Assembly: GCA_035295465.1 (NCBI GenBank)
Contig: DATGIZ010000035.1
Coordinates: 74,677-138,676, forward strand
Direction: 5' to 3'
From: Candidatus Binatia bacterium
GTDB taxonomy: Bacteria > Desulfobacterota > Binatia > DP-6
DNA length: 64,000 nucleotides
Below, piece after piece: positions 3,623 through 27,524 of the stretch (position 1 is the stretch's first letter; the number at the start of each line of letters is the position of its first letter). The notes under the pieces are model-generated. The model was not told the origin of the DNA. It worked only from the letters and a program-made list of their open reading frames with translations, and did no database searches. The position numbers and the translations under genes were made by a program.

Positions 3623-3663
3623 ACCAAACTCGTCGCTCTCCGCCGGGTGGGGGGCTATCATAA

Positions 3664-3719
3664 TGCCGGGACCGGGGCTCGAACCCGGACGACGGTTACC
3701 CGTCAGCGGATTTTAAGCC
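3664..3719. repeat. attL-like partial copy of the tRNA-Leu 3' half (about 54 nt, 2 mismatches)
   Basis: tgccgggaccggggctcgaacccggacgacggttacccgtcagcggattttaag matches 23135-23190; it covers the tRNA from its 3' end to the anticodon loop. Confidence 0.8.
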
Positions 3720-5391: not shown

Positions 5392-8307
5392 TCAGCTCCA
5401 CGCACCGATCAACACAAACGGTGCCCAGAAGTATGGCGCCGCAAGCGATTCCTCCCGGCCGAGGGCATCGCTCTGAACCGTGCGCTCCATGAGCTCGATT
5501 CGCGCTAGCCGCAGGGCGTCCGCCTTCGTTGCGCCGTCCCGCAAGTGCCTGTAGAACGCCTCCATGAACAGGCTGGTGGACTGGTCGTTGACTGGCCACA
5601 AACTCGCCACCACCGCGCGGCTTCCAGCATATAGGAAGGCGCTTGTGAGGCCGACGAGACCCTCCCCGCGGTAAAGCTTCCCCTCAGCGGTGTTGCACGC
5701 GGACAAGACGACGAGTTCAGCGTTCAGTCGAAGATCGAATATCTCCGACATTTTGAGAAAGGGGTTTTCCCCATCCGTATCGGAAAAGACCAGCGTCGGC
5801 TGGTTGATCCACTTCACATCGTCGCCAACGACCGCGTGTGTAGCAAAATGCAGGATGCGATAGCGCCTTAGGTCGATGTCCTGCAGACGGCGCTTCGTCG
5901 CTCGCTCCCGCAGATTGATCACATCGGACCCGGGAGCTACCCCGTAGAGCGAGGCGATCCGTTGCACCTCGTTGGCCGAGTACGGCAGACGGCCAAAGCC
6001 GTGGCTCATGCGCTCGTAGGTACCGCGCACGTTGAACGCCACGGCACGGCCTTCGGGAGCGGACGAATATACGGGATCACCGAAAGCGAGAAGGGGCAAC
6101 TGTGGTTGCTCCTTGCTTACGCCCTCGCTGTAGCCCCGCCTCGTCAGGAAGACCAACACCGAGGCCGAGGGGGCGTAACTCACGGCATACTGCCTCGCAA
6201 GGTACGGCACCGACGACAGCGCGGGGTTCATCCTGCCGTCAGCATGTGCCGTTGGCCGAATGAGCGCCTCGAAGGGTAGGTAGCAGAGGGCCCCGGCGGG
6301 GATAACGACGACGTGCTCCCGCCCCCTGATCTCGTCGGCCGCTGGCTGAACCAGTATATGATAGAGCCGCTGACCGAGACGGATGTGGGACTTGATCTCA
6401 TCGGGACCTATGAGCGGGGTGTCAAGCGTCTTGCGGTAGCGTGCGACGAGGTCTGCGATACGGTCCCCTCTGGCAAGGGGGAGCAGACGCACATCGGTCC
6501 GGGTGACGACCCATAGCGCCGACACTTCCTCCCCCGATGGTCTCTCGCCCAGGGCATATTCCAGCAGGATGGTGTGGTCATCAAGGAGCGCCTGCACGTC
6601 TATGATGGAGGCCGTCTCGCTTCTCGCCGTCTGGGAACGGTCACTGGCCGCATGCGAAGAAGCCGTGGACACGGCCGCTGCCTCACTGGCGACGGCAGCC
6701 TCAAGGTCGGAGTGCGCCTGGCGACCAGCGGGGACCTGCTCCGAGAGGGCCCGCTTGAGGCTGCGAACCTGCTCCGATCCGGGCTCACGTGTCTCGTTAA
6801 TCATATCCAGGAGCGTGTGAGCCTTCCCCCTTTCGAGGTACTGGAATGCTTGAATAGCGTTCCCGTCGTTCCGTCCGTTTGCCTGAAGCTTCAGAGACGT
6901 CGCGACTGCATCTAAATAGAATTGCATTGCCTCGTCACGGACTGAGAGCTGCACACGGCCAGCCCGCTGTGCATGGCCGATCCGGTCAAGGATATCGATG
7001 GCCTGCGAATAGAGCGTCAGCGCCTCGTCGAGCTGGCCTTCCTCCTCTTTCACAGAGCCCATCTCATTGAGCAGGATATAGTCGTCCGGGTCGTGAACGC
7101 GCTGATCAACACGGCGAGCCTCTTCAAGTGCGCTCCACGCCGCCCGAAGCTGTCCAACCTGCTGGTATGCCAAGCCGAGGTTGTACAGGTCGCCGGCAAC
7201 TTCGCCGAGCGCCTCACGGCTCGCACGGGCAGCGACGCGGTGAAGCGCCAACGCCAACTTCGAGCATGCGATTGCGGAATCCACGTTGCCGTTCCAGGCT
7301 TCGACTTCCCCCAGCATTTGGAGGGCCACCGCGCCGTCCGGTGTCAGGGGGAACCCGTCGGCCCCGGCTGTCGTCTCCAACCAGTCCTGCAGTAGGCTCC
7401 GCAGGCTACTGAGTGCCGTCTGGGTGCATTGGCGCGTCTGCGCAGTGTCGTCTCGATCGTTGGCGACGGATGCGAGCATTCCGAGAGCGCGAAGCTGAAG
7501 ATTCCGATCGCCGGCCTCGCTGGCTTGACCGAGCGCATCGTGGAACCATCGCTCCGCCTCGTCCAAGTCCCCGACCAACTGGTGAACCTCGCCAAGGCCG
7601 ATAAGAGCCTCTGCGGCACGCTGGTGATCATCCGCGCGCAAAAAGTCCGCCAGCGCGGAATCGTATAGCTGAAGAGCCACGTCGTACCGGTCGCGATTCT
7701 GTGAGAAGAGGGCCTTGTCGAGCACCACTTGAGCTTCAAGAGCCCGGTCTCCGGTCTCGTGCGCCACCTCTCTCGCAGTCAGGAAAGACTGCTCGGCTTC
7801 CTTAGGCTTCCCCATGGCGTCCATCACGCGAGCTGAGGCCCGCAGCGCCGCGATCTCTGCGACCCGATCCCGTCGAGCTTGGGCGCGTTTGCGCCGTCCC
7901 TCGTAGAAGCGCACCGCCTTGGCTGGATCGGCTGGGCCTTGGACATCCGCCAACTCTCGCCCAAAGAGGTCAGCTAGACGCGCCGATCTCGAGGGAACCA
8001 GTTCAGTTAGAGCATCGAGCGCATCTGTCATCCGACCGAGCCGAAGAGAGGTCCGCACCAGAGCTACCAACACGTCCGGGTTCGCCGGATCGAGCTGTCG
8101 AACGCGCTGGAACGCCTCAAGCGCCTCCTGGTTGTGGCCGCCTTTCTCGAAGGCGAGGCCGGCACGGAAACATGCCCTGGTATCCCCGCGCTTCGAGGTG
8201 CTCCGGATTGCTTGGCAAGGATCGATGGCGCTTGCCACACCGCTGGCGGCGCTCACCAGAATGCACAAGCCCAGAATTCGCGTGGTGCTCACCGCAAGCT
8301 GCGTCAC
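5392..8307 (-). CDS. secreted TPR-repeat protein with C-terminal CHAT (caspase-like) protease domain
   Basis: N-terminal signal peptide MTQLAVSTTRILGLCILVSAASGVASA; multiple TPR-like repeats; the C-terminal CHAT domain has the His/Cys dyad (HFATHAV, LSACNTAEG); the GTG start overlaps the upstream gene stop (GTGA). Confidence 0.88.
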   Translation of the reverse strand: MTQLAVSTTRILGLCILVSAASGVASAIDPCQAIRSTSKRGDTRACFRAGLAFEKGGHNQEALEAFQRVRQLDPANPDVLVALVRTSLRLGRMTDALDALTELVPSRSARLADLFGRELADVQGPADPAKAVRFYEGRRKRAQARRDRVAEIAALRASARVMDAMGKPKEAEQSFLTAREVAHETGDRALEAQVVLDKALFSQNRDRYDVALQLYDSALADFLRADDHQRAAEALIGLGEVHQLVGDLDEAERWFHDALGQASEAGDRNLQLRALGMLASVANDRDDTAQTRQCTQTALSSLRSLLQDWLETTAGADGFPLTPDGAVALQMLGEVEAWNGNVDSAIACSKLALALHRVAARASREALGEVAGDLYNLGLAYQQVGQLRAAWSALEEARRVDQRVHDPDDYILLNEMGSVKEEEGQLDEALTLYSQAIDILDRIGHAQRAGRVQLSVRDEAMQFYLDAVATSLKLQANGRNDGNAIQAFQYLERGKAHTLLDMINETREPGSEQVRSLKRALSEQVPAGRQAHSDLEAAVASEAAAVSTASSHAASDRSQTARSETASIIDVQALLDDHTILLEYALGERPSGEEVSALWVVTRTDVRLLPLARGDRIADLVARYRKTLDTPLIGPDEIKSHIRLGQRLYHILVQPAADEIRGREHVVVIPAGALCYLPFEALIRPTAHADGRMNPALSSVPYLARQYAVSYAPSASVLVFLTRRGYSEGVSKEQPQLPLLAFGDPVYSSAPEGRAVAFNVRGTYERMSHGFGRLPYSANEVQRIASLYGVAPGSDVINLRERATKRRLQDIDLRRYRILHFATHAVVGDDVKWINQPTLVFSDTDGENPFLKMSEIFDLRLNAELVVLSACNTAEGKLYRGEGLVGLTSAFLYAGSRAVVASLWPVNDQSTSLFMEAFYRHLRDGATKADALRLARIELMERTVQSDALGREESLAAPYFWAPFVLIGAWS

Positions 8308-9941
8308 TTCTGACAGACGTGAACCTGCCGATACGGTATCGTCCCTTTGGCAAGCGCGGCGATCAACTCGCCGATCATCGAGGAGAGCTTGGGCGGGTGT
8401 TCGGGCTTGACGTACCGGGTCACTGTGTCGGCTCCGGCGTCTGCGTACCCGATCAAGTCAACGATCCCGTCACAGTCCACGTCGAAGTAGAACACGGTCG
8501 TCGCGGCCTTCGACTCAATGACGGTGTCGAGGGTGTTCTTCTCGTTGCGGCCGACGACAGCGTACTTCAGGGTCCGCGCCTGGGCGTCCCGATAAATGAG
8601 CCACATGTCGGGCGGCGGGACCGTGCTCTGCACATACGCGCCGGCGATTCCATGTCCGAATCGCTCCACGCGGTAGGCCGAGGGGGAAGACGGGGAGGTC
8701 ACAGGGGCAACCCGGCTCGTTGCCCGCTTGAGGAAATTGCTTACCTCGTCAGCGGCCACCGCATAGTTCAGCCCCTCCTCGCCCTCCCGCCGGAACGAGT
8801 TGATACCAATGATTTCTCCCTGATCGTCGAGGAGAGGGCCGCCGGAGTTGCCGGGGTTGATTGCGGTTTGGGTCTGAATGACCGTGCCCTGATGGAGCAG
8901 GTTGTCGCTACCCTTCCACTGGTAGTTCGGTCGAATCTGGCTAATGACGCCCGTGGTGTAGGTCCAGACCTCCCCCTCGGGATGGCCGATCGCATGGACG
9001 TCCTGCCCCACCTCGATCCTGCCTATATCGGCCACCGGAAGCCATGGGATGGTTCCGCGTGTTGGCGTCGCGACCTTCAGGAGCGCCAAGTCTGCGATCT
9101 GATCAACCTTCAAGAGCGTGGCGGCGTAGGCGGGCTCTTCCTCGATCGACACGCCGTGCTCCGGCTTGAACACCACAGCGATCTTGTTCGCATCTTCCAC
9201 GACGTGCGCGTTCGTCACGATGTGTCCGGCGGGGTCAACGACGACACCACTCCCAAGGCTCTTGTCAGTGACGAGCAGCACGGTGGCGGGGGCGGCCTTC
9301 TTGTAGAGCGCCACATCGTTCGGCCCACGTGTCTCTTCGAGGAGCAGGGTCTTGGGGAGCTGCTCCAGGGCGGAGAGGATCTGCTTGTCGAACGGCAACG
9401 AGGCAGCGGAGGGAGGCGGGGAGTGGCCAAGGACCGCTTGCTCTTGCGGTGAGAGGTCAGCGACCTCTTCCACGCGCGAGACAGCGCCTGGCGGACCGGG
9501 CGTCAGTTGGCGAGTGATGGTCAACCCTGTGAGACGCGTGACAACGAAAACCGCGACGCACACGGCGGCGAATTCCGCGGCGATGCGGGTGATAGGCACT
9601 CGGAAGAAAGTCTTCCAAGTCATCGAGACGACATGCGTGATTCGTGTCACCCGGGAGGGTGGCACGCCGACTCGCGCCGGGGACGACCCGGCCAGAAGCT
9701 TCGCCTTCCGGACGAGATCAGCAGGAGGGTCTTCTCCTGCCTCTTCGAGGCGCGCGAGCGCTCGCAGATCCGTCTGCCGATTCGTACAAGACGGACACGC
9801 CAGAAGATGCGACTCGACCGCGCGACGTTCTTCGGGGTCCAACTGCCCTTCCAGGTAAAGCCCCAGGGCAGCCGTTGACGGACAACCCGGGGCTCTTACG
9901 CGGCCCAGCCTCCGCAGCACATCGTCCGTGATCTCTTTCAC
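8304..9941 (-). CDS. anti-sigma factor (zf-HC2), TM helix, trypsin-like S1 serine peptidase fusion
   Basis: N-terminal CPSC...HLLACPSC zinc-finger anti-sigma motif; one TM segment AAEFAAVCVAVFVVTRL; an S1 protease domain with the H/D/S triad (TNAHVV, DLALLKV, GNSGGPL); a further C-terminal domain of unknown type. Confidence 0.8.
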   Translation of the reverse strand: MKEITDDVLRRLGRVRAPGCPSTAALGLYLEGQLDPEERRAVESHLLACPSCTNRQTDLRALARLEEAGEDPPADLVRKAKLLAGSSPARVGVPPSRVTRITHVVSMTWKTFFRVPITRIAAEFAAVCVAVFVVTRLTGLTITRQLTPGPPGAVSRVEEVADLSPQEQAVLGHSPPPSAASLPFDKQILSALEQLPKTLLLEETRGPNDVALYKKAAPATVLLVTDKSLGSGVVVDPAGHIVTNAHVVEDANKIAVVFKPEHGVSIEEEPAYAATLLKVDQIADLALLKVATPTRGTIPWLPVADIGRIEVGQDVHAIGHPEGEVWTYTTGVISQIRPNYQWKGSDNLLHQGTVIQTQTAINPGNSGGPLLDDQGEIIGINSFRREGEEGLNYAVAADEVSNFLKRATSRVAPVTSPSSPSAYRVERFGHGIAGAYVQSTVPPPDMWLIYRDAQARTLKYAVVGRNEKNTLDTVIESKAATTVFYFDVDCDGIVDLIGYADAGADTVTRYVKPEHPPKLSSMIGELIAALAKGTIPYRQVHVCQK

Positions 9942-10020: not shown

Positions 10021-10614
10021 CTACGATCCTGCTTCAAGGACGCCTGCTCTTCTCATACAGTCCTCGACCTTGGCCTTCGCGCGGAAGTGCTTCGATGCGA
10101 CGGTCCCTTGAGGAAGATCGAACACGGCGGCGATTTCGTCGTACGGGTAGCCTTCCGCCCGCCTCAGGAAGATCTGCCGATCGAGGTCGGTAAGTTCCTG
10201 CAGACAACGTACAGCTTGGTCGAGGAGCTGCCGCATGGTGGCGGCCTTCTCCGGATCCTGGCTCTCTGGCGTGAGCCATGTTGGGTCAGGTCGAGCACAT
10301 CCGGTGTCCTCTTCGGGGACCTCGCGGCGGCGAGCCTGCGCCCGCTGATAGTCCCTGATCTTATTGGCCGTGATGGTCCGCAGGAAGGCGCGAAACTCCC
10401 ATTCCGTATCCCCGTGGAACTGGTCCAGCGCCCCTTTCGCCAGAGTCAGGAAGACCTCCTGGAAGAGATCTTCCCGGCCGGCCTGTCCTAAGCCTTGAAC
10501 TTGCCTCAGGATTCCCCAGACGAGCCGCCTGTATCGGTCAACGAGAGCCTCCCAGACTGACCGTTCGAGGCCGGCGGCCCGTCTGATGCGCTCACGAATC
10601 TCCACCGCGACCAC
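10021..10614 (-). CDS. ECF subfamily RNA polymerase sigma-70 factor
   Basis: Region 2 is DLFQEVFLTLAKG; region 4 is YDEIAAVFDLPQGTVASKHFRAKAKV; it is co-oriented immediately upstream of the anti-sigma-protease gene. Confidence 0.85.
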   Translation of the reverse strand: MVAVEIRERIRRAAGLERSVWEALVDRYRRLVWGILRQVQGLGQAGREDLFQEVFLTLAKGALDQFHGDTEWEFRAFLRTITANKIRDYQRAQARRREVPEEDTGCARPDPTWLTPESQDPEKAATMRQLLDQAVRCLQELTDLDRQIFLRRAEGYPYDEIAAVFDLPQGTVASKHFRAKAKVEDCMRRAGVLEAGS

Positions 10615-10703: not shown

Positions 10704-11018
10704 ATGGGCGACGCGCGTTGGTTGAAGAAGGCCATGCTGGGGGCGGCCATGCTCTGCGTGGCATCGTCGTCCGCTTGGGCCGACGTCTACGTCCACGGCT
10801 ACTATCGCGGGAACGGGACGTACGTCCAGCCATACGTTCGCAGCGACCCGGACGGGAACCCGTACAACAACTGGAGCTACCCGGGGAACGTGAATCCGTA
10901 CACGGGTCGCGTCGCACCTGGCAACGCCGATACGTACCTTTACAACTACTACAACCGGAACGGGGGCAGTGGCTTCGGAACGCTGGATGACTCCGAAGAC
11001 GAGGGTGGCGATGATTGA
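10704..11018 (+). CDS. small secreted protein with NPY/YxxN repeats and a polyacidic C-terminus
   Basis: Signal peptide AMLCVASSSAWA; Tyr/Asn/Pro-rich repeats; tail DDSEDEGGDD; it is divergent from the ECF sigma gene and paralogous to 11738-12034. Confidence 0.55.
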   Translation: MGDARWLKKAMLGAAMLCVASSSAWADVYVHGYYRGNGTYVQPYVRSDPDGNPYNNWSYPGNVNPYTGRVAPGNADTYLYNYYNRNGGSGFGTLDDSEDEGGDD

Positions 11019-11415
11019 ACGGCATCAAAGTGTGCAGAGTCCGTCGGGCCTCCGGTCCGCATCTGTGCGGCTCGCGGGACTGGCCCTACTCATGGCACTT
11101 TCGCTGGGCGCAAGCGGCTGGGCGGCCACCGTTGCCGAGATTGCGAAGAACCCCACCGGCTTCGATCAGAAAACGGTGACGGTGAGTGGTACCGCCGAGG
11201 CGGTTAGCAGCCGCACCTCACGCCGGGGCAACCCGTATACGACGTTTCGGCTCGCTGGCCAGGGCGAGGTGGTCAAGGTCTTCAGCTTTGGGACGCTGCC
11301 GATCAAGCCAGGGGATCGGGTCCAAGTCCAAGGCACCTTTCAACACGTGAAACACGTCGGTCCTAGCACGTTCTATGACGAGATCACGGCATCGTCGGTT
11401 GAGCCCACCAAATAG
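11011..11415 (+). CDS. secreted hypothetical protein, possibly a BOF/OB-fold-like periplasmic protein
   Basis: ATG at 11011 overlaps the preceding stop; signal peptide LAGLALLMALSLGASGWAA; a beta-rich pattern of the OB-fold type. Confidence 0.45.
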   Translation: MIERHQSVQSPSGLRSASVRLAGLALLMALSLGASGWAATVAEIAKNPTGFDQKTVTVSGTAEAVSSRTSRRGNPYTTFRLAGQGEVVKVFSFGTLPIKPGDRVQVQGTFQHVKHVGPSTFYDEITASSVEPTK

Positions 11416-11457
11416 CATGACGGTGCTTTGGGGCGCGGGCCATCAAGGAGATACGAT

Positions 11458-11685
11458 ATGAGAAGGATCGTGACGCTTGGTACCCTGGTTGCAGTTGCCC
11501 TCCTCTTCTCGCCACCCGTTTTTCGACCTCACCGAGCCGCGGCGCGGTCGGGGGCGGGCACTGGCGTGCCAGCGAACGACGTCGAGAAAAGTGGCTGCTG
11601 CTCTTGGCACGGGGGCGTCTGCGGGTGCGAGGGCAACCGGGTGCAGTGCTGCGACGGCACACTGAGCCCAAGCTGCACCTGCTAG
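11458..11685 (+). CDS. small secreted Cys-rich peptide (bacteriocin/toxin-like)
   Basis: AAGGAG RBS before the ATG at 11458; a signal peptide then the mature tail CCSWHGGVCGCEGNRVQCCDGTLSPSCTC, with 9 Cys in 28 residues. Confidence 0.5.
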   Translation: MRRIVTLGTLVAVALLFSPPVFRPHRAAARSGAGTGVPANDVEKSGCCSWHGGVCGCEGNRVQCCDGTLSPSCTC

Positions 11686-11737
11686 AGCTGCGACTCTTCA
11701 CCCGAGGATCCGTCATCGAGCACGAGGAGGGGGAAAA

Positions 11738-12034
11738 ATGAAGGTTCTTCTACTGACGCTCGTTGTTCTCATCACCGGTATCACCTGGGCAGGAAGCCCC
11801 ATCGTCGTTGCACCGGATGGGACTTACCTTGGGAACTTGAATAGTAACCCATACGATCCGAACTCCGTCGCCAATCCCTACGGCCGCTACGGCAGTCCGT
11901 ACAGCCCAGACAGCATCAACAACCCGTACGGGCAGTACGGGAGTCCGTATAGCCCGAATAGCGTGACGAACCCGTACGCCGTACCTAGCCTCCCGCCGTC
12001 TGACAGCGGATTAGGTGACGACGACGAGGACTGA
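11738..12034 (+). CDS. small secreted protein with NPY/SPYSP repeats and a polyacidic C-terminus (paralog of 10704-11018)
   Basis: Signal peptide MKVLLLTLVVLITGITWAGS; repeats NPYDPNS / NPYGRYGSPYSP; tail GDDDED. Confidence 0.55.
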   Translation: MKVLLLTLVVLITGITWAGSPIVVAPDGTYLGNLNSNPYDPNSVANPYGRYGSPYSPDSINNPYGQYGSPYSPNSVTNPYAVPSLPPSDSGLGDDDED

Positions 12035-12732: not shown

Positions 12733-13212
12733 ATGCCCTATTCGGCCAAAGCAATCGCCAACTGGTTCTTGAAGAGGGACGAGCTGAGCCCAATGAAGCT
12801 TCAGAAGCTCGTCTACTTCGCCCACGGTTGGAAGCTCGGCCTCCGGGGCACGCCGCTGATCAATGAGGAGATTGAGGCGTGGGACTACGGGCCGGTGGTG
12901 CCCGACCTCTATCACGAGTTCAAGCAATTCGGCAGCGCACCGATCACGGCCTTCGCGACGCGTTGGAAGCTCGACGACGGGAAGCCGCGGTTGGTGCAGC
13001 CGCTCGTCCCGCCCGATGCCGTAGACACGCAAGCCCTTCTCCGTCGCATCTGGAAGGTCTACGGGCACAAGACCGGTGGACAACTGTCCGCCATTACACA
13101 CCTTCCCGACTCGCCGTGGAGTCAGATCCGGCGAGAGTGCAACACTCGCGGCGCCGTCATTCCTAACGAGCGCATCGCCGCGTATTTCAAGCGCCTCGCT
13201 CAGCGTCCGTAG
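12733..13212 (+). CDS. Panacea domain (DUF4065) protein, SocA/PanA-like antitoxin
   Basis: MKLQKLVYFAHGW ... EAWDYGPVVPDLY is characteristic of DUF4065; a small toxin candidate lies immediately downstream, its ATG abutting this gene's TAG stop. Confidence 0.78.
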   Translation: MPYSAKAIANWFLKRDELSPMKLQKLVYFAHGWKLGLRGTPLINEEIEAWDYGPVVPDLYHEFKQFGSAPITAFATRWKLDDGKPRLVQPLVPPDAVDTQALLRRIWKVYGHKTGGQLSAITHLPDSPWSQIRRECNTRGAVIPNERIAAYFKRLAQRP

Positions 13213-13692
13213 ATGAGCGATGAGGTCCGCCCGAAGCCTTCAACGGAGGAACCCCCGCCGAAGGCCGAGCTGGACCTCATTAAGGTCCCCGCCGAGCCCC
13301 TTCCCGAGGAGGAGGGTGAGCGTTTCGAGCGGCAGGAAGCGGAAGCACTTGATCGCGAGCGGACAAAGGAGGACCAGCTCCAAGATCGCGAGCGCCAGCT
13401 CGCGCTGGACATCAAGGAGCACGGTCTCCGTCAAGCCCGGCACGAGCTTGCGGAACGCACCAAGTACGCGGGCCGCCTCTTCAACCTCATCCTGTGGTGG
13501 CTGGTCGGGATAGGCGGGATCATCCTCCTTCAGGGATTTCATCGACTGCCGTTCTGGCCACACATTCGCTTCAGGCTCTCTGATCCGGCCCTGCTCGCGC
13601 TCATCGGAGGCACGACGCTCAACGTCCTCGGCATCTTCGTCGTCGTGGTGAACTACCTCTTCCCCAAGCGAAGAGATGGGCGAATGTTCTAA
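13213..13692 (+). CDS. small membrane protein, candidate PanT-like toxin partner
   Basis: The ATG directly abuts the PanA stop; a charged coiled-coil N-terminus and two predicted C-terminal TM helices (LFNLILWWLVGIGGIILL, LIGGTTLNVLGIFVVVVNYLF). Confidence 0.45.
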   Translation: MSDEVRPKPSTEEPPPKAELDLIKVPAEPLPEEEGERFERQEAEALDRERTKEDQLQDRERQLALDIKEHGLRQARHELAERTKYAGRLFNLILWWLVGIGGIILLQGFHRLPFWPHIRFRLSDPALLALIGGTTLNVLGIFVVVVNYLFPKRRDGRMF

Positions 13693-13815
13693 CTTCCCGT
13701 CGCGGGTGTCCGACTTTAGGACATCACCCTCGTCCGCGCGACATTGCAACGGATGCGCGTTTCGGTCTAGAAGAGGTACGTTCTCCGTGTCGGAGCCCGG
13801 GGAAGTCGTTGTGAC

Positions 13816-15390
13816 GTGAGCAATCGACGAGCGCGCGGCGCACCTCGGAGAGACCGTGCCTCCGGGCCTGAACTGGTCTTCGGCGTCGTAGGGGCCTTGG
13901 GTACCGACGTCGGCAGGCTCACGAGCACCCTACAGGAAGCACTCTCCGACTTCCGCTACACGCCTGTTCCCATTCGCCTCTCGGATCTGCTGCGCGAGTT
14001 CCCGGCTTGGAGCGGTCTGCCAAGGAGCCCGCACGATGACAGAATCGAAGCGCTTCAGAACGCCGGAAACGAGCTGCGCAAGGCCGGCGGGGGCGAAGCG
14101 ATGGCGGCCCTCGCCCTTGCGGAGATCCAGGGATACCGAACGCGTAACGGCCACGATGCGAAGAAGCCAGTAAGCGCTGCCGCGTACATCCTCCGATCAC
14201 TGAAGCACCCCGCAGAAGAGGAGCTGCTGCGAGCGATCTATGGCTCGTCGTTCTTCCTCATCGCCGCCTACGCTCCGATAGAGGAGCGGCGGAAAAACCT
14301 CGCGCGCGAGATAGCACGGTCCCGCCATGGCATGCGCCAAGCCGAGGCGCTCGCCCGGTCCGACACCCTGATCCAAAGGGACGATCACGAGCAGGATCGC
14401 TCGCATGGACAGCTAGTTAGGGACACGTTCCCGCGCGCCGACGTGTTTGTTGCAGTTCATCGCCCCGATGAGACGGTTGAACAGATGCAGCGCTTCGTCG
14501 ACTTGGTCTTCGGCCACCCGTTCCACACCCCAACACAAGACGAATTCGCGATGTTTCAGGCTCGAGCGGGAGCACTGCGATCAGCGGATCTTTCCCGCCA
14601 AATCGGTGCAGCGATTGCGACGGGGCATGGCAGCGTTGTGGCCCTTGGAACAAACGAGGTGCCCAGGGCCGGCGGCGGCCAGTACTGGTCTGGGGATCGT
14701 CCGGACCACCGAGATTTTCAGCTCGGAGAAGACGAGAGTCTCCGTATCCGTAGCAGCATGCTGGCCGAGATACTCCTGCGGATGGAAGCTGAGGGGTGGC
14801 TTCAGATGGAGGTCGGGACAAGAGTCAAACGGGACGTGGACAGGGAGGTCGGAGTCCTATTGCCCCTTCTGAGGGAGACGACCATGATGAGCGTCGGAGA
14901 GTTCGGCAGGACGGTACATGCCGAGATGGCAGCTCTCATGGATGCCGCTAGACGCGGCGTACCTGTTCAGGGCTCTACGCTCTTTTCCACCACGTTTCCC
15001 TGCCACAACTGCACCAAGCACATCGTGGCAGCAGGGATAAGAAGGGTCGTATACATTGAGCCCTTCCCCAAGAGCCGTGCGGCAGAGCTTCACGATGATT
15101 CGATCGTTGTTGATCCCTCCGGGCAAGTCGAGGGGAAGGTGAACTTCGAGCCCTTCGTGGGCATCGCGCCGAGGCGCTACCTCGAGCTTTTCACGATGCA
15201 GCGTCGTGAGAACCCTGACGGTTCGGTTGTTCGATTCACGAGGGCGGCCGCTGCCCCGCGAGTCTCGGCAACGAGGGGCTACGTAGAGACGGAAGACGTC
15301 GCGGTCGTCGAGCTTTGGAAACGGCTGAAGCAAGCTGGTATGAGGCTCCACACGCCCGAAGGAAGGCGCCGCGGGACAGTGAGGAGGTGA
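13816..15390 (+). CDS. dCMP/cytidine deaminase zinc-binding domain protein with a long N-terminal domain (anti-phage dCTP deaminase-like)
   Basis: C-terminal HAEMAAL...PCHNCTKHIVAAGIRRVVY deaminase motifs (HxE, PCxxC); a roughly 270-aa N-terminal domain of unknown type; GTG start; on the island next to a toxin-antitoxin pair. Confidence 0.62.
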   Translation: MSNRRARGAPRRDRASGPELVFGVVGALGTDVGRLTSTLQEALSDFRYTPVPIRLSDLLREFPAWSGLPRSPHDDRIEALQNAGNELRKAGGGEAMAALALAEIQGYRTRNGHDAKKPVSAAAYILRSLKHPAEEELLRAIYGSSFFLIAAYAPIEERRKNLAREIARSRHGMRQAEALARSDTLIQRDDHEQDRSHGQLVRDTFPRADVFVAVHRPDETVEQMQRFVDLVFGHPFHTPTQDEFAMFQARAGALRSADLSRQIGAAIATGHGSVVALGTNEVPRAGGGQYWSGDRPDHRDFQLGEDESLRIRSSMLAEILLRMEAEGWLQMEVGTRVKRDVDREVGVLLPLLRETTMMSVGEFGRTVHAEMAALMDAARRGVPVQGSTLFSTTFPCHNCTKHIVAAGIRRVVYIEPFPKSRAAELHDDSIVVDPSGQVEGKVNFEPFVGIAPRRYLELFTMQRRENPDGSVVRFTRAAAAPRVSATRGYVETEDVAVVELWKRLKQAGMRLHTPEGRRRGTVRR

Positions 15391-15393
15391 GTC

Positions 15394-15564
15394 ATGGTGG
15401 ACAAGGGGCAGAAGCCATCGGGCTGGATTGGTCGCAGGATGGAGGACTTGGAGCGAGAGTCGAAAGACTGGCCCATCTGGAAGCAAGAGGATCTCCGAGA
15501 GCGCCTCGAGCGTGATGGTGTGCAGTGCGTAGAGCCTTCCGATCAGCCTCGAGGCAAATCGTAG
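15394..15564 (+). CDS. small hypothetical protein (56 aa) overlapping the deaminase stop
   Basis: GAGGAGG RBS 6 nt upstream of the ATG; a charged product MVDKGQKPSGWIGRRMEDLERESKDWPIWKQEDL...; not in the ORF track (under 60 aa). Confidence 0.3.
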   Translation: MVDKGQKPSGWIGRRMEDLERESKDWPIWKQEDLRERLERDGVQCVEPSDQPRGKS

Positions 15565-15582: not shown

Positions 15583-16167
15583 ATGCGCACCGTGGTGACC
15601 CGCGCCGACTGGCTCGGCGCCTCTGGCCCCACGAACGCGTTCCTATGGGAGCAAGTGGCGCGGCGTCGTGGCGAAAGCCCCACAGCGCCCGTGGCCGTCG
15701 TGCGGTTGGAGGACCTTGCCCCGGGTGCAAGCGCCGACACCGCCCCCGACCCGCAGCACACGGCACCCGGGGCACCAGCCGTGGCCGTGGACCCGGGCGT
15801 GCCACTTCGCCGCCGCGCCGCCGGCGCTCCTCTGGCGCTCGCGATCACGTCAACGGCGCTCGCGTCAGGGAGGCGAGTCGAGTGCCCGCATTGCGGGGAG
15901 CACTTCACGCCGGCGCCGAAGCCCGGGAAGAAACCGACGCGCCGCCTGCCACCGGATGCCCGGTTCCTCAGTTGGCTCGCGGCTCGGGGCGGCAGTGCCT
16001 CCGTGAGCAGCATCGCCCGCCGGTTCCACCTGCGCCGAGCCGAGCTTGTCGTCCTCCTCGGCCGCTTCGCCCACGCCGGTGTCGTCTTGAACCACGACGG
16101 CCGTGGTGGCGGCTACCGCTTTCACTTGCTGCGCGTGCCCGCCCGCTCGAGCGCGCTGGCCCTGTAG
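15583..16167 (+). CDS. hypothetical protein with a CPHC zinc-ribbon-like motif
   Basis: ORF only; CPHCGEHF motif; no recognisable family. Confidence 0.35.
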   Translation: MRTVVTRADWLGASGPTNAFLWEQVARRRGESPTAPVAVVRLEDLAPGASADTAPDPQHTAPGAPAVAVDPGVPLRRRAAGAPLALAITSTALASGRRVECPHCGEHFTPAPKPGKKPTRRLPPDARFLSWLAARGGSASVSSIARRFHLRRAELVVLLGRFAHAGVVLNHDGRGGGYRFHLLRVPARSSALAL

Positions 16168-17321: not shown

Positions 17322-18107
17322 CTACTTCTTGGAGATCCCGCCTGACTTCGGCTCCAGACTCTCGCGACGCTGGCGCTCAGCATCCTCGTCTGTAGAGAAT
17401 ATGCGCGCCCGCTGATAGCGCCGAATACGCCGGCGCATCTCGTCATCGCTCCACGGTGGCCACCTCCCGGTCCTCATGTAGTGCTTGAAGCGCTCACGGT
17501 AGGTCCGTTCGACTTCGGGGAAACCACGGGCAAGCCGGCGGTCCCACCCTCTGCCGCTGGCGAGGGCCGCCCCCAATGCCCGACGGTCCTCTGGATCGGA
17601 TTGGACTTGGACTGCGCGCTCCAAGAACTGCCGCACCCGCGGGTCGGTGCAGAGTGCGATCGGCTTGAGACGAACAATATCCGCAATTGCTCGCCGAATC
17701 GCCCGCTCGACCCCTTCCAGTGCTCCCGGTGGCGTCGGCGCCGCGAAGGAGCGCTCGTATTGAGGGCGGTAGTTCTCTCGGAGGGCCAGCGCCTCGTCGA
17801 GGGCCTTGCTCGCCTCCTCCACGGTGCGCGCGGCGCCACGAATGGCTCGGCCGCTCTGCCGATGGAGCGGTCGACTTCCCACCACCTCGGCGAAGAGGTG
17901 ATCGAGCGGGGAGCCGAGCGCGCGGGCCAACCGGTTGAGGGTGCTGAGTTTGGGGTCGCCACCGCGCTCGATCGTCCCGATCTGAGGCTGCGAAACTCGC
18001 GCCTTGCGCGCGAGTTCACGAAGGCTCCACCCGCGGTCGTCGCGGAGGCGCCGCACCGTTCGACCGACCCGCTGCCCGAGTGACCCGATAGGTGGACTGA
18101 TCAGCAC
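17322..18107 (-). CDS. XRE family helix-turn-helix transcriptional regulator with a C-terminal extension (island repressor-like)
   Basis: WSLRELARKARVSQPQIGTIERGGDPKLSTLNRLARALG is a cro/C1-type HTH. Confidence 0.72.
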   Translation of the reverse strand: MLISPPIGSLGQRVGRTVRRLRDDRGWSLRELARKARVSQPQIGTIERGGDPKLSTLNRLARALGSPLDHLFAEVVGSRPLHRQSGRAIRGAARTVEEASKALDEALALRENYRPQYERSFAAPTPPGALEGVERAIRRAIADIVRLKPIALCTDPRVRQFLERAVQVQSDPEDRRALGAALASGRGWDRRLARGFPEVERTYRERFKHYMRTGRWPPWSDDEMRRRIRRYQRARIFSTDEDAERQRRESLEPKSGGISKK

Positions 18108-18712: not shown

Positions 18713-19543
18713 ATGAGCGCCGAGATGCTCCTCGACGCCGCAGTTGCCTACGCCACCCGCGGGTGGCGCGTGTTCCCGTGCTCGCAGAACAAGGCCCCGC
18801 GCACGCCGCACGGGGTTCTCGACGCGACGACCGACACCACGACTATCCGGGCATGGTGGACGAAGCACCCCGCGCCGAGCATCGGCATCGCCACGGGGCA
18901 GGGCTCCGGCTTGGTCGTGCTCGACGTCGACCCGCGCCACGGCGGCGACGATGCACTTGCTGAGCTTGGGCAGCAGTACCGGACCCTGCCGGCCACCCCG
19001 CGGGTGATCACGGGGGGCGGCGGGACACACATCTACCTGCGCCACCCCGGCAGCGTCGTCCCGTGCTCCACCGGCCGGCTCGGTAGGGGCCTCGATGTCC
19101 GCGGCGCTGGCGGCTACGTGATCGCGCCGCCGAGCGGGCATGCGAGCGGTCGGTCCTACATCTGGATGATCGGCTACGGCCCCGACGACGTGCCGCTGGC
19201 CGCTACACCCCCCTGGCTGCTCGGGCTCATCGCGTCGACAGCGGGCCATCGGTTGCGGAGGAACGGCACCGCGCTGGTCATCCCGTTCGGCGAGCGCAAC
19301 GCGACGCTGGCGCGCTTTGGTGGCCTGCTCCGGCGCTACGGCCTGAACGCGGTCGCCATCCGGGACGCGTTGACCGCGATCAACCGCGAGCACTGCACGC
19401 CGTCATTGCCCGCCAATGAGGTGGAGAGGATCGCCGCGAGCGTCTCGCGTTATACCCCGGCCCTTCTCCCGCCTTTGCACCCTTTTCGCGCCGGGACGCC
19501 GGCCGACGCGCTGGTCGCCCGGGCGCTGGGCCTCTTGCCATGA
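18713..19543 (+). CDS. bifunctional DNA primase/polymerase (PrimPol) N-terminal domain protein
   Basis: GWRVFPC...K.P...GV.DAT.D...I..WW...P..SIGIATG..SGLVVLDVD ... GGGTHIYL is the canonical PrimPol pattern. Confidence 0.85.
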   Translation: MSAEMLLDAAVAYATRGWRVFPCSQNKAPRTPHGVLDATTDTTTIRAWWTKHPAPSIGIATGQGSGLVVLDVDPRHGGDDALAELGQQYRTLPATPRVITGGGGTHIYLRHPGSVVPCSTGRLGRGLDVRGAGGYVIAPPSGHASGRSYIWMIGYGPDDVPLAATPPWLLGLIASTAGHRLRRNGTALVIPFGERNATLARFGGLLRRYGLNAVAIRDALTAINREHCTPSLPANEVERIAASVSRYTPALLPPLHPFRAGTPADALVARALGLLP

Positions 19544-20790
19544 AGGTGCTCACACCGACCCCCGAGATGTTCCCGCCGCCCCTTAACCTGCTGCGCGACG
19601 CCTGTGCGCACACGGAGGCGCATTCGGCTGCCGTCGCAGTGCAGTTTCTCGTGGCGGTCGGCAACATGGTCGGCCGCGAGGCCCACACGTACGTCGGGGA
19701 GACGCGTCACGGAACCAACGAGTTCGCGCTGATCGTTGGCCCGACTGCGACGGGCCGCAAGGGGGATTCCAAGAACACGGCGGTAGCGCCCCTCGAAGGC
19801 GCAGATAGCGAGTGGTTCGCGAGCATCACGGGGGGGCTTAGCAGCGGGGAAGGGCTGATCCACGCGGTGCGGGATCCTGTCTACGGCGCCAACAAGAAGG
19901 GCGAAGAGGTGCTGGTCGACCCCGGCGTCACGGACAAGCGCCTCTTGTGCGTCGAGACCGAGTTCTCCTCGGTACTCAAGCAGTTCCGCCGCGAGCACAA
20001 CATCCTGTCGAACACGCTGCGCGAGGCGTGGGATGGGAAGCGCGTCCTGCGCACATTGACCAAGACCTCACCAACGCGGGCAACCGATGCACACATTTCG
20101 CTCATCGGGCACGCCACCCCTGAGGACCTGCGCGCCTACCTCGCCGACCTCGATGTCGCGAACGGCGTTGTCAACCGGTTTCTGCTCACCGCGTGCAGCC
20201 GGCCACGCCTCGTCCCTTGTCCCCGCCGCCTCCCGGACGAGGTGCGGCGGCGCGTGACCGAGCACGTGCGCGGCGTGCTCAGTCACGCGCGCAACATCGG
20301 CCATGTTCCACGAACCGAGGCGGCGGAGGCACTGTGGTGCAAGCTCTACCTTGACGAGAAGGGGCTCGCAGCCAAGCGGCCCGGCCTCCTTGGCGCACTG
20401 CTTGCCCGCGGACCTGCACACCTCACCCGCCTCGAGTTGATCTTCGCGCTGCTCGCCAGCGCCCGGGCGCGGGACGTCAACCACCTCATCGCGGCCGCCG
20501 CGTGGTGGGACTATTGCGTCGCTTCCGCGGAGGTCATCTTCGCTGACCGCACCGGGAACGACGCCGCCGATCGCATCCGGGCAGAGCTGCTGCCGGGCGA
20601 GAGCATGACGTTGTCGGAGATCCGCGAGCAGCTCTTCGCGAACAAGATCGCCTCGGGTCGACTCCGCGATGCCTTGGCCCTGCTCCGGGACCTGGGCGAG
20701 GTGACGTTAACGAAGCGCGAGACCGATGGTCGTTCCGCCGTCGTGGTAACCCGCGTTGTCGCTGCTGCCGCGGCTGCGGGGGGAGCGTGA
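19540..20790 (+). CDS. DUF3987 domain protein (PrimPol-associated helicase-like replication protein)
   Basis: The ATG overlaps the PrimPol stop (ATGA); this is the typical partner of PrimPol in integrative elements. Confidence 0.65.
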   Translation: MKVLTPTPEMFPPPLNLLRDACAHTEAHSAAVAVQFLVAVGNMVGREAHTYVGETRHGTNEFALIVGPTATGRKGDSKNTAVAPLEGADSEWFASITGGLSSGEGLIHAVRDPVYGANKKGEEVLVDPGVTDKRLLCVETEFSSVLKQFRREHNILSNTLREAWDGKRVLRTLTKTSPTRATDAHISLIGHATPEDLRAYLADLDVANGVVNRFLLTACSRPRLVPCPRRLPDEVRRRVTEHVRGVLSHARNIGHVPRTEAAEALWCKLYLDEKGLAAKRPGLLGALLARGPAHLTRLELIFALLASARARDVNHLIAAAAWWDYCVASAEVIFADRTGNDAADRIRAELLPGESMTLSEIREQLFANKIASGRLRDALALLRDLGEVTLTKRETDGRSAVVVTRVVAAAAAAGGA

Positions 20791-27429: not shown

Positions 27430-27524
27430 GGAGAAGGAAGGGGCCCGGTGGTCCCACCGGTCTTCAAAACCGGTTGGCCTCCCTGGCGGAGGCTGGAAGG
27501 TTCGACTCCTTCCCTTCTCCGCCA
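27430..27524 (+). tRNA. selC: tRNA-Sec (selenocysteine, anticodon UCA)
   Basis: 95 nt; an 8-bp acceptor stem GGAGAAGG/CCTTCTCC; anticodon loop CTTCAAA; a long variable arm; T-loop GGTTCGACTCC; encoded CCA. The architecture matches E. coli selC. Confidence 0.9.

What the first reader, a model, noticed from the sequence alone, without database searches (positions are those of the whole stretch)
13816..15564. dCMP-deaminase-domain protein with a large N-terminal domain: candidate anti-phage dCTP deaminase
The C-terminal 250 aa carry the zinc-binding deaminase signature (HAEMAAL, PCHNCTKH) with an inserted loop. The N-terminal 270 aa form an unassigned domain beginning with a degenerate P-loop-like segment GVVGALGTD. 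This two-domain layout matches the published nucleotide-depletion defence proteins (dCTP deaminases with an N-terminal kinase-like domain). Its location between a toxin-antitoxin pair and other island cargo fits that role. A 56-aa ORF with a strong RBS overlaps its stop and may be a partner or regulator.
Basis: partly seen in the sequence, partly recalled or inferred. Interest (0 to 1): 0.65.

Follow-up and report, generated by a model that had tools for sequence, protein, structure and literature searches.

The report
Anti-phage dCTP deaminase with small partner
This gene is a clear member of the known bacterial anti-phage dCTP deaminase family, which starves viruses of a DNA building block. 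The tiny 56-codon gene attached to its end is a conserved, previously undescribed companion that may be the enzyme's protein "safety catch".

Summary
Both the observation and the interpretation hold. ORF 13816-15390 (+, 524 aa) scores above the curated cut-off of NCBIfam NF041025 "anti-phage dCTP deaminase" (435.9 bits against 400). It also hits PADLOC dCTPase at E=4.6e-152. A high-confidence AlphaFold model (pLDDT 93) shows an N-terminal nucleotide-kinase-like domain and a C-terminal zinc dCMP-deaminase domain with intact HAE and PCHNC motifs. The gene lies on a ~19.5-kb element integrated at tRNA-Leu, next to a Panacea toxin-antitoxin pair. The deaminase itself is therefore a new member of a known family (AvcD/DcdV).

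The added value is the 56-aa ORF at 15394-15564. It has a GAGGAGG ribosome-binding site inside the last deaminase codons. Homologues with a W...WPxWK core sit immediately 3' of the deaminase, often overlapping its stop, in Acidobacteriota, Planctomycetota, Myxococcota, Gammaproteobacteria (including a Vibrio plasmid) and others. All 13 pairs tested show pN below pS. Every context look-up that started from the small protein landed next to a deaminase. No conserved RNA structure was found. I found no description of it in the literature. I propose, as inference only, that it is a labile protein inhibitor playing the role of the AvcI sRNA. Its function is untested.

The parts
13816..15390 (+). Anti-phage dCTP deaminase gene (AvcD/DcdV family), 524 aa, GTG start, TGA stop
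   Evidence: NCBIfam NF041025 at 435.9 bits against a cut-off of 400. PADLOC PDLC02373 at E=4.6e-152. 2328 homologues found, mostly 500-530 aa. AF2 model with pLDDT 93.3 and pTM 0.91.
13873..14508 (+). N-terminal P-loop-kinase-like domain (residues ~20-231)
   Evidence: Foldseek matches to the adenylate-kinase-related protein 3lw7/3h0k (target TM 0.73-0.77), to UMP-CMP kinases 7e9v/1uky and to PFKFB kinase domains. Invariant residues K130, E134, Y142, R158, D189, G198, Q199 and D209 are present.
13882..13914 (+). Glycine-rich loop GVVGALGTDVG (residues 23-33), a degenerate Walker-A between strand 1 and helix 1
   Evidence: Motif position and secondary structure. The window has D31-V32-G33 where the E. 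coli plasmid relative has G-I-K-S and the Desulfobacterales relatives have G-C-S-S.
14533..15207 (+). Zinc-dependent dCMP/dCTP deaminase domain (residues ~240-464), including a helical insert at ~285-362 (14668-14901)
   Evidence: Pfam PF00383 at E=1.1e-15. PDB sequence hits to dCMP deaminases 2hvv, 7fh4, 1vq2 and 2w4l. Foldseek hits to the same structures. Helices 300-352 in the model.
14917..14925 (+). HAE (H368, A369, E370): zinc ligand and catalytic glutamate
   Evidence: A369 and E370 are invariant and H368 is at least 90% conserved across 115 sequences.
14998..15012 (+). PCHNC (residues 395-399): the two zinc-binding cysteines
   Evidence: P395 and C396 are invariant and C399 is at least 90% conserved.
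15381..15387 (+). Shine-Dalgarno GAGGAGG for the small ORF, embedded in the last two deaminase sense codons, with a 6-nt spacer to the ATG
   Evidence: Sequence read. The same layout (GGAG-type motif, TGA, 3 nt, ATG) occurs in L003, L087 and L089.
15394..15564 (+). Conserved 56-aa partner ORF (W11...W26-P-x-W29-K30 core, two predicted helices, polar tail)
   Evidence: Homologues lie immediately 3' of the deaminase in at least 20 loci, scoring 44-67 bits against 15 bits for the best hit anywhere else. Positional enrichment gives p=3e-10. pN is below pS in all 13 pairs. Six of six look-ups from the small protein landed next to a deaminase. Also present on a Vibrio plasmid. No Pfam, PHROG, PADLOC or NCBIfam hit.

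Best explanation
The locus is a two-gene nucleotide-depletion defence module carried as cargo on a ~19.5-kb element integrated at tRNA-Leu.

Gene 1 (13816-15390) is an AvcD/DcdV-family anti-phage dCTP deaminase. A kinase-like N-terminal domain is fused to a zinc deaminase domain. By analogy with characterised family members, the enzyme is held inactive in healthy cells. When a phage shuts down host gene expression it becomes active and converts dCTP (and dCMP) to deoxyuridine nucleotides. This collapses the dC pool and stalls phage DNA replication.

Gene 2 (15394-15564) is a translationally coupled 56-aa protein that co-occurs with the deaminase across several phyla.

What is shown: family membership, the two-domain fold, intact catalytic residues, the mobile-element context, and the conservation, coupling and coding nature of the small ORF.

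What is inferred: (a) that this copy actually defends against phage (about 0.8); (b) that the small protein is the labile inhibitor, a protein counterpart of the AvcI sRNA, whose loss after phage-induced shut-off frees the enzyme (about 0.35-0.4).
For: Family membership: NF041025 equivalog above its cut-off and PADLOC dCTPase at E=4.6e-152. E. coli, Klebsiella and Vibrio plasmid relatives at 32-38% identity over 92-95% of the length are annotated 'anti-phage dCTP deaminase'.

Fold: pLDDT 93.3, with dCMP-deaminase matches for the C-terminal half and adenylate/UMP-CMP kinase matches for the N-terminal half.

Catalytic residues: HAE, PCHNC and every family-invariant residue are present.

Mechanism precedent: dCTP depletion on infection requires both domains (10.1101/2021.04.26.441389). 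DcdV is toxic unless inhibited by an sRNA encoded 5' of the gene (10.1101/2021.03.31.437871). That sRNA decays on transcription shut-off (PMC10511110).

Context: 60-nt att repeats at 3658-3717 and 23129-23188 at tRNA-Leu, an integrase, PrimPol/DUF3987 genes and a Panacea TA pair. The closest homologue (L003) sits beside ImmA/IrrE, a Bub-like ubiquitin-like system and an integrase.

Small ORF: conserved position and motif, positional enrichment p=3e-10, dN/dS 0.18-0.49, and ATGA-type or SD-in-stop coupling. All look-ups from the small protein are deaminase-adjacent. The upstream spacer shows no conservation or structure signal.
Against: No experiment was done. Defence activity and substrate are inferred from homology at about 32-38% identity to the enterobacterial and Vibrio lineages to which the tested enzymes belong.

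The Walker-A-like loop lacks the Lys/Ser-type residues that were mutated in the tested enzymes, so the N-domain's role may differ.

The inhibitor role of the small protein has no direct support. I could not co-fold the two proteins, and the small protein's own model is low-confidence (pLDDT 68.5).

Many family members lack the small ORF, including a large alphaproteobacterial clade, the E. coli plasmid and a Rhodococcus plasmid. It is therefore not universally required.

A downstream antitoxin is the less common gene order in type II TA systems (general knowledge).

An AvcI-like sRNA cannot be excluded, because known AvcI RNAs share no sequence similarity with each other.
Confidence: 0.8

Rival explanations
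1. The small protein is a positive regulator or phage sensor. It would bind a phage component, or activate or assemble the deaminase, rather than inhibit it.
For: The same conservation and coupling evidence applies, and it says nothing about the sign of regulation. Clades without the small ORF presumably still restrain the enzyme by other means. Hsueh et al. could not purify active DcdV and suspected an unknown cofactor.
Against: Characterised family members are constitutively toxic and need an inhibitor, not an activator. The small size, the polar and probably disordered tail, and stoichiometric coupling all fit antitoxin-like proteins.
Confidence: 0.3
2. This is a single-gene system, and the 56-aa ORF is a chance or hitch-hiking ORF with no role.
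For: Tal et al. and the DefenseFinder/PADLOC-type models treat the dCTP deaminase as one gene. High-GC DNA generates many spurious ORFs. Most sampled loci lack the ORF.
Against: The motif is conserved in AT-rich and GC-rich genomes from several phyla, and always in the same slot. Enrichment is p=3e-10 and pN is below pS in 13 of 13 pairs. The SD/stop/ATG junction is conserved. Six of six look-ups from the small protein return deaminase neighbours.
Confidence: 0.07
3. Regulation is by an AvcI-like non-coding RNA, encoded either in the 123-nt spacer upstream (13693-13815) or in the RNA of the small-ORF region. The peptide would then be irrelevant.
For: The best-studied relatives (AvcID) use an sRNA antitoxin encoded 5' of the gene. 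Those RNAs are not conserved in sequence, so absence of similarity is weak evidence. The E. coli plasmid relative has a small ORF in the upstream position.
Against: There is no Rfam hit. The upstream spacers of close relatives do not align, and the fold z-score is -0.67. A 123-nt spacer is short for a promoter plus a ~174-nt RNA. The small-ORF region has no consensus structure (-3 kcal/mol, unfavourable covariation term) and folds worse than shuffled sequence (z=+2.18). Its conservation follows codons, and pN is below pS.
Confidence: 0.1
4. The gene is a housekeeping dCMP deaminase (ComEB type) or a RibD-type deaminase, not a defence gene.
For: The zinc core resembles dCMP deaminases.
Against: ComEB TIGR02571 gives 53 bits against a cut-off of 219 and covers only residues 362-418. 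No RibD model was hit. The full-length architecture matches the defence family. The gene sits on an integrated mobile element with lower GC than its flanks.
Confidence: 0.02
5. The 56 codons are a C-terminal extension of the deaminase, made by TGA read-through. In this window they are in the same frame as the deaminase, separated only by TGA-GTC, and the organism has a tRNA-SeC.
For: The ORFs are in frame in the window, L003 and L004. A tRNA-SeC lies at 27430-27524.
Against: In other loci the small ORF is in a different frame, with 4-nt (ATGA/GTGA), 1-nt, 11-, 14- or 20-nt overlaps. It has its own SD and ATG. No fused versions exist among the top 120 homologues or in the 1.84-billion-protein search.
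Confidence: 0.03

Closest known systems
Anti-phage dCTP deaminase (Tal et al. 2021/2022; NCBIfam NF041025; PADLOC/DefenseFinder 'dCTPdeaminase')
   Same: It has the same full-length architecture, with a kinase-like N-domain and a zinc deaminase C-domain with an insert. It scores above the curated equivalog cut-off. HAE and PCxxC are intact. It has the same mobile-element or defence-island context and the same sparse, horizontally spread distribution.
   Different: The described system is a single gene, whereas here a conserved, translationally coupled 56-aa ORF follows it. Identity to enterobacterial relatives is only about 32-33%. The Walker-A-like loop reads GALGTDVG, without residues equivalent to those mutated in the E. 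coli AW1.7 enzyme (G29/C30).
AvcID / DcdV-DifV type III toxin-antitoxin system of Vibrio cholerae and Enterobacteria (Hsueh et al.)
   Same: The toxin/effector family and the presumed logic are the same: a toxic deaminase is kept off until phage-induced shut-off. It is a two-component locus with a small element adjacent to the deaminase gene.
   Different: AvcI is a non-coding RNA of about 174 nt encoded 5' of the deaminase. Here no upstream RNA signal is found. The adjacent element lies 3', is protein-coding (pN below pS, conserved WPxWK motif) and has no conserved RNA structure.
Type II toxin-antitoxin modules with a downstream small labile antitoxin (reverse gene order, e.g. higBA or mqsRA; from general knowledge)
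   Same: A small, helical, partly disordered protein is translationally coupled to a potentially toxic enzyme on a mobile element.
   Different: No DNA-binding domain is recognisable in the 56-aa protein. Neutralisation is untested. There is no sequence similarity to any catalogued antitoxin family (no Pfam, NCBIfam, PADLOC or PHROG hit).
Housekeeping and viral dCMP deaminases (ComEB, human DCTD 2w4l, T4 Cd 1vq2, PBCV-1 bi-DCD 7fh4) and vertebrate CDADC1 (9hfq)
   Same: The zinc-deaminase core fold and the catalytic motifs are shared.
   Different: Those enzymes lack the kinase-like N-domain and the ~80-residue helical insert. The sequence match is limited to about 60 residues.

Membership tests
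Anti-phage dCTP deaminase (NF041025 / AvcD-DcdV) | Full-length match to the curated family model, above its trusted cut-off | tested here: met
   NF041025 equivalog at 435.9 bits against a cut-off of 400, covering residues 19-464 on model positions 1-435 of 437. PADLOC PDLC02373 at E=4.6e-152.
Anti-phage dCTP deaminase (NF041025 / AvcD-DcdV) | C-terminal zinc-dependent cytidine/dCMP deaminase domain with HAE...PCxxC | tested here: met
   H368-A-E370 and P395-C-H-N-C399 are present. Pfam PF00383 at E=1.1e-15. Structural matches to 2w4l, 7fh4, 2hvw and 4p9c.
Anti-phage dCTP deaminase (NF041025 / AvcD-DcdV) | N-terminal kinase-like (P-loop NTPase fold) domain, protein longer than 350 aa | tested here: met
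   The protein is 524 aa. In the AF2 model residues 20-231 match adenylate-kinase-related 3lw7/3h0k and UMP-CMP kinases 7e9v/1uky.
Anti-phage dCTP deaminase (NF041025 / AvcD-DcdV) | Intact nucleotide-binding (Walker-A-type) motif in the kinase domain, shown to be essential in E. coli AW1.7 (G29/C30) and DcdV (S52) | tested here: inconclusive
   The glycine-rich strand-1/helix-1 loop is retained (G23, G26, G29; G29 is at least 90% conserved). However, the positions aligned with G-(K/C)-S of the E. coli and Desulfobacterales relatives are D31-V32-G33. Most of the sampled family shares this, so it is a clade feature and not decay of this copy. I could not align directly to the AW1.7 or V. cholerae sequences.
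Anti-phage dCTP deaminase (NF041025 / AvcD-DcdV) | Location in defence islands or mobile elements, with sparse distribution | tested here: met
   The gene lies on a ~19.5-kb element integrated at tRNA-Leu with att repeats, an integrase and a Panacea TA pair. The closest homologues lie in unrelated contexts, one of them a defence island.
Anti-phage dCTP deaminase (NF041025 / AvcD-DcdV) | dCTP (and dCMP) deamination upon infection, and protection from phage | not testable with these tools
   This needs LC-MS of dNTP pools and plaque assays.
AvcID type III toxin-antitoxin system | Non-coding RNA antitoxin (AvcI/DifV) encoded immediately 5' of the deaminase gene | tested here: inconclusive
   The 123-nt upstream spacer has no Rfam hit, no conservation among close relatives and an unremarkable fold (z=-0.67). 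Known AvcI RNAs are not sequence-conserved, so absence cannot be proven.
Type II toxin-antitoxin system (protein antitoxin) | Small protein that binds and neutralises the adjacent toxin and is more labile than it | not testable with these tools
   Only indirect evidence exists: conserved adjacency, translational coupling, purifying selection and a helical-plus-polar-tail architecture.
Housekeeping dCMP deaminase ComEB (TIGR02571) | Score above the equivalog cut-off and a single-domain protein of ~150 aa | tested here: not met
   53.3 bits against a cut-off of 219.45, matching only residues 362-418.

The most novel reading that the evidence does not exclude
One toxic effector family, the AvcD-type dCTP deaminase, is controlled by interchangeable antitoxin classes in different lineages. 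Enterobacteria and V. cholerae use an upstream sRNA (AvcI, type III). Acidobacteriota, Planctomycetota, Myxococcota, some Gammaproteobacteria (including a Vibrio nigripulchritudo plasmid) and this organism use a downstream, translationally coupled ~50-70-aa WPxWK protein. If so, the small protein defines a new antitoxin/regulator family. It would make these systems respond to translation shut-off or proteolysis rather than to RNA decay.
Probability: 0.35. Interest if true: 0.7.

Novelty: new variant of a known kind. Interest (0 to 1): 0.45.

Why it matters
The deaminase itself adds only another member to a family that NCBI's pipeline already names automatically. What matters is the conserved small partner gene. 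How AvcD-type deaminases are kept silent and then triggered is understood only for the sRNA-controlled Vibrio and E. coli systems. For most of the family no regulator is known.

A conserved, coupled 50-70-aa protein in several deep branches gives a concrete, testable candidate for that regulator. It suggests that current single-gene defence-finder models miss a component. It also shows that public annotation is unreliable at these loci. The JGI/ENA gene call truncates this deaminase by 95 residues, which removes the P-loop, and the gene table available for the Vibrio plasmid lists no CDS for the small ORF.

The Vibrio nigripulchritudo plasmid copy offers a cultured organism for experiments.

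Tried and rejected
(1) Co-folding. I tried to model the deaminase together with the small protein. No interface prediction was possible.

(3) The word-index search with the 56-aa protein alone found only itself. The profile search found only 14 proteins among 90 candidates. These counts say little about the true family size.

(4) Fusion check. I found no deaminase carrying the motif at its C-terminus among the top 120 homologues. The one long hit in the exhaustive search (P0126, 494 aa) is a eukaryote-type tandem-repeat protein with a chance 'EIWKQEDLR' match.

(5) The AvcI-like upstream RNA idea gave no Rfam hit, no conservation and no unusual folding.

(6) The structured-RNA reading of the small-ORF region is rejected.

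(7) The sigma-70 promoter scan found nothing between 12400 and 16400, and no terminator-like site lies at the end of the module. The transcription unit is therefore undefined.

(8) The downstream 194-aa gene (15583-16167, weak winged-helix hits) and the upstream Panacea pair are not conserved next to the deaminase in relatives, so I excluded them from the system.

(9) I did not determine the host taxon. The window matches JGI metagenome contig Ga0070734_10000240.
Full report
**1. The observation**

The ORF is real. It runs 13816..15390 on the + strand and encodes 524 aa. GTG 13816 is the only ATG, GTG or TTG between the upstream in-frame stop and the conserved segment FGVVGALGTD, so the start is forced.

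The public gene call for the same DNA is only 429 aa and starts at M96, which drops the whole glycine-rich loop. That call comes from JGI 3300005533 contig Ga0070734_10000240 and an ENA assembly. Homologues of 500-530 aa align from residue ~18 onward, so the long form is correct.

- HAE lies at residues 368-370 and PCHNC at 395-399.
- The small ORF runs 15394..15564. GAGGAGG at 15381-15387 sits in the last two deaminase sense codons, TGA is at 15388-15390, and the ATG is at 15394.

**2. What the large gene is**

Three independent libraries agree.
- NCBIfam NF041025 'anti-phage dCTP deaminase' (equivalog) scores 435.9 bits against a cut-off of 400, essentially end to end.
- PADLOC dCTPase gives E=4.6e-152.
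- PHROG 9198 gives E=2.4e-92.

The outcome that would have refuted the reading did not occur. ComEB scores 53 bits against a cut-off of 219 and matches only the zinc core, and no RibD model appears. PDB sequence search finds only the ~60-residue core in dCMP deaminases and CDADC1. No member of this family appears to have a deposited structure.

An AlphaFold2 model built on 115 sequences is confident (pLDDT 93.3, pTM 0.91). Foldseek against the PDB separates it into two parts:
- a C-terminal dCMP-deaminase fold (2w4l, 7fh4, 1vq2, 2hvw, 4p9c);
- an N-terminal nucleotide-kinase fold (adenylate-kinase-related 3lw7/3h0k with target TM about 0.75, UMP-CMP kinases 7e9v/1uky, and PFKFB kinase domains).

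This is the architecture defined by Tal et al. and by Hsueh et al.. Tal et al. describe an N-terminal kinase, a C-terminal deaminase and a length above 350 aa, with both domains essential. Hsueh et al. describe a P-loop kinase plus a DCD domain with HAE-X28-PCxxC.

All residues that are invariant in the 115-sequence alignment are present in the window protein: K130, E134, Y142, R158, D189, G198, Q199, D209, E370, P395 and C396, among others. The enzyme therefore looks functional.

One nuance concerns the strand-1/helix-1 loop. It keeps G23, G26 and G29 but reads T-D-V-G where an E. coli plasmid relative has S-G-I-K-S and Desulfobacterales relatives have A-G-C-S-S. Nearly all the relatives I fetched share this lysine-less form. 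It is a clade trait, and it may mean that the N-domain binds rather than transfers phosphate. That last point is inference.

**3. Context**

A 60-nt direct repeat (95% identity) lies at 3658-3717 and 23129-23188. The second copy overlaps the 3' half of tRNA-Leu(taa) at 23134-23221. Between the repeats, GC drops to 62-69% against 72-80% in the flanks.

The element carries:
- a tyrosine integrase;
- PrimPol/PriCT and DUF3987 genes;
- HTH_17 and HTH_3 regulators;
- a CHAT-TPR protein, a trypsin-like protease and an ECF sigma factor;
- a SocA/Panacea antitoxin with an abutting 159-aa protein;
- the deaminase.

The deaminase is therefore cargo on a ~19.5-kb integrative element, which fits a defence gene. 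The neighbours are not conserved in relatives. The only conserved neighbour is the small ORF.

**4. The small ORF is a genuine, conserved partner gene**

*Close relatives.* In the four closest relatives (61-68% identical deaminases from unrelated contexts), a 55-61-aa ORF follows the deaminase with the motif P[ST]GWIxxRMxxLExESxxWPxWK.

*Unbiased profile.* A profile made from only these four sequences was run against all 14,162 stop-to-stop ORFs of at least 25 aa in 83 loci. Its weak hits fell disproportionately in the slot just after the deaminase stop on the same strand. Nine of 29 hits fell there, although only 197 of 12,832 ORFs occupy that slot (hypergeometric p=3e-10).

*Direct inspection.* The slot holds small ORFs with a shared W...(E/K)(V/S)xx(W/R/Y/L/M)PxWK(R/K) core in Acidobacteriota, Planctomycetota, Myxococcota, Gammaproteobacteria, candidate division FCPU426 and others.

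*Iterated profile.* It scores these ORFs at 44-67 bits, against 15 bits for the best ORF anywhere else. Two non-seed members score 48 and 56 bits.

*Reading frames.* Start positions relative to the deaminase stop vary. There are 4-nt ATGA/GTGA overlaps, 1-nt overlaps, overlaps of 11, 14 and 20 nt, and gaps of 3 to 62 nt. The ORF therefore lies in different frames relative to the deaminase. It is a separately initiated, translationally coupled gene and not a read-through extension, even though in the window it happens to be in frame.

*Junction.* The arrangement of a GGAG-type motif, TGA, 3 nt and ATG is conserved in the window's subgroup.

*Selection.* pN is lower than pS in all 13 pairwise comparisons. 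dN/dS is 0.18-0.49 where synonymous sites are not saturated.

*Reverse test.* Starting from the small protein, an exhaustive phmmer search of 1.84 billion representatives found six free-standing 53-55-aa relatives and one spurious hit. A profile search found 14, all 53-69 aa and all 'hypothetical'. All six context look-ups (P0123, P0125, P0127, P0134, P0136, P0137) placed the small gene directly 3' of a deaminase gene or gene fragment. One of these, P0134, probably duplicates locus L012.

*Cultured example.* A RefSeq-annotated 'anti-phage dCTP deaminase' on a Vibrio nigripulchritudo plasmid also has the small ORF (...VESWPAWKQEQ...). It overlaps the deaminase stop by 11 nt, has no CDS in the available gene table, and is followed by a terminator-like hairpin and T-run.

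*Distribution.* On a neighbour-joining tree of the deaminases, the positive loci occupy three deep clusters. A large alphaproteobacterial clade, the E. coli plasmid branch and the Rhodococcus plasmid lack the ORF. Desulfobacterales carry a different small ORF in the same slot. In my genome sample, 13 of 70 loci with enough downstream sequence carry it. That sample was selected by peptide patterns, so this is not a family-wide frequency.

**5. How it probably works**

For the deaminase I adopt the published mechanism. The enzyme is kept inactive in healthy cells. When phage shuts off host transcription it deaminates dCTP and dCMP, depleting dC nucleotides and blocking phage DNA synthesis.

For the small protein there are no data beyond genomics. 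It has no hit in Pfam, NCBIfam, PADLOC or PHROGs. Alone it is predicted, with low confidence, as two helices (residues 11-23 and 31-41) flanking the invariant WPxWK turn, followed by a polar tail.

Several observations point the same way:
- characterised relatives are toxic and need an inhibitor (AvcI/DifV);
- the lineages with the small ORF show no conserved upstream element;
- the E. coli plasmid relative has its small ORF upstream, in the AvcI position, and nothing downstream.

The most economical hypothesis is that the WPxWK protein is a labile protein inhibitor that replaces AvcI. I put this at about 0.35-0.4. A sensor or activator role is about as hard to exclude (0.3). An RNA-level role for the region is disfavoured, for three reasons:
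- the consensus structure is only -3 kcal/mol with an unfavourable covariation term;
- the window sequence folds worse than shuffled sequence (z=+2.18);
- conservation follows codons.

**6. Comparison with what is known, and novelty**

The deaminase is a member of the anti-phage dCTP deaminase / AvcD family by every testable criterion except the exact Walker-A residues, which are inconclusive. As such it is not novel.

The two-gene form with a conserved downstream protein differs from both described forms, which are the single gene (Tal et al.) and the upstream sRNA plus deaminase (AvcID). I found no paper describing it in four literature searches. Absence from this library is not proof that it is unpublished.

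I rate the finding as a new variant of a known kind, with moderate interest (0.45). The enzyme is ordinary, the partner is a specific and testable lead, and its function is unproven.

Noticed in passing
window 3658-3717 and 23129-23188; tRNA-Leu(taa) 23134-23221 (-): A 60-nt direct repeat (95% identity), whose second copy overlaps the 3' half of tRNA-Leu, brackets a ~19.5-kb integrated element with lower GC (62-69% against 72-80%). The element carries an integrase (~21773-23299, +), PrimPol/PriCT (18713-19543), DUF3987 (19540-20790), HTH_17 excisionase-like genes and an HTH_3 repressor (17322-18107, -). The called integrase 3' end overlaps the tRNA, so that call may be too long.
   Followed up: partly
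window 12733-13212 (+) and 13213-13692 (+): A SocA/Panacea-domain antitoxin (Pfam E=6.8e-20) is directly abutted by a 159-aa protein with no family hit. That protein has an acidic, charged N-half and two hydrophobic helices at its C-terminus. The pair looks like a PanA-PanT toxin-antitoxin pair with a membrane-acting toxin. It is not conserved next to the deaminase in relatives.
   Followed up: partly
window ~5392-7824 (-), 8304-9941 (-), 10021-10614 (-): The same element carries an 810-aa CHAT-protease/TPR protein, a trypsin-like serine protease with an anti-sigma-like N-terminus, and an ECF sigma factor. Several small proline- and tyrosine-rich secreted-looking ORFs follow at 10704-12034. 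This may be a second cargo module, of unknown role.
   Followed up: no
window 14101 (M96) against 13816: The public gene call for this deaminase (P0001, 429 aa, in JGI and ENA assemblies) starts at M96. It therefore lacks the glycine-rich loop and the first strand and helices of the kinase-like domain. This is an annotation error caused by the GTG start.
   Followed up: yes
window 27430-27524 (+): A tRNA-SeC (anticodon tca) is present, so the host uses selenocysteine. This matters only because the deaminase TGA is followed in frame by the small ORF. Frame variation in other loci argues against read-through.
   Followed up: partly
window 15583-16167 (+): A 194-aa ORF starts 19 nt after the small ORF. 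It has weak winged-helix hits (Rrf2 E=1.2e-3, MarR_2 E=4.7e-3) in its C-terminal third. It is called by JGI but is not found next to the deaminase in relatives. It may be co-transcribed, since no terminator was detected between the genes.
   Followed up: partly
L005 3165-3398 (+) (GCA_041747205.1 contig JBGTFO010000644.1): An ORF that begins like a ParE/RelE-type toxin ends with ...RPMWKKQDLRERLAECD. This resembles the C-terminal half of the small partner protein (WKQEDLRERLERD) and scores 15-19 bits. It looks like a remnant second copy or a recombination scar about 700 nt downstream of the intact one.
   Followed up: no
L066 5667-5849, L070 5589-5759, L071 1875-2039, L082 713-913: Desulfobacterales deaminase loci have a different 54-66-aa ORF that overlaps or follows the deaminase stop. 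L070 and L071 share ...IIREFKASS / ...IIQEYKSKS. This suggests that a small downstream partner may be more general than the WPxWK family and diverges quickly.
   Followed up: no
L003 2097-7309: The closest full-length homologue (68% identity) lies next to an ImmA/IrrE peptidase with an HTH pair, a Bub-like ubiquitin-like conjugation system (Multi_ubiq, Prok-E2_E, JAB/ThiF, BubE) and an integrase. This is a defence-island-like context that supports an immune role for this deaminase subgroup.
   Followed up: no
L085 2948-3109 (NZ_AP027047.1, about 120729-120890): A small-partner ORF with no CDS in the available gene table (MSPNSTLVAHLSKSKSRVESWPAWKQEQ...) lies after the RefSeq 'anti-phage dCTP deaminase' of a Vibrio nigripulchritudo conjugative plasmid. 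It is followed by a terminator-like hairpin and T-run. This is a convenient cultured-organism system for testing the partner's role.
   Followed up: partly
L084 705-887 (E. coli plasmid NZ_CP148280.1): The E. coli plasmid relative has a 60-aa annotated hypothetical ORF 55 nt upstream of the deaminase, which is the position described for AvcI/DifV-like regulators. It has no WPxWK ORF downstream.
   Followed up: partly
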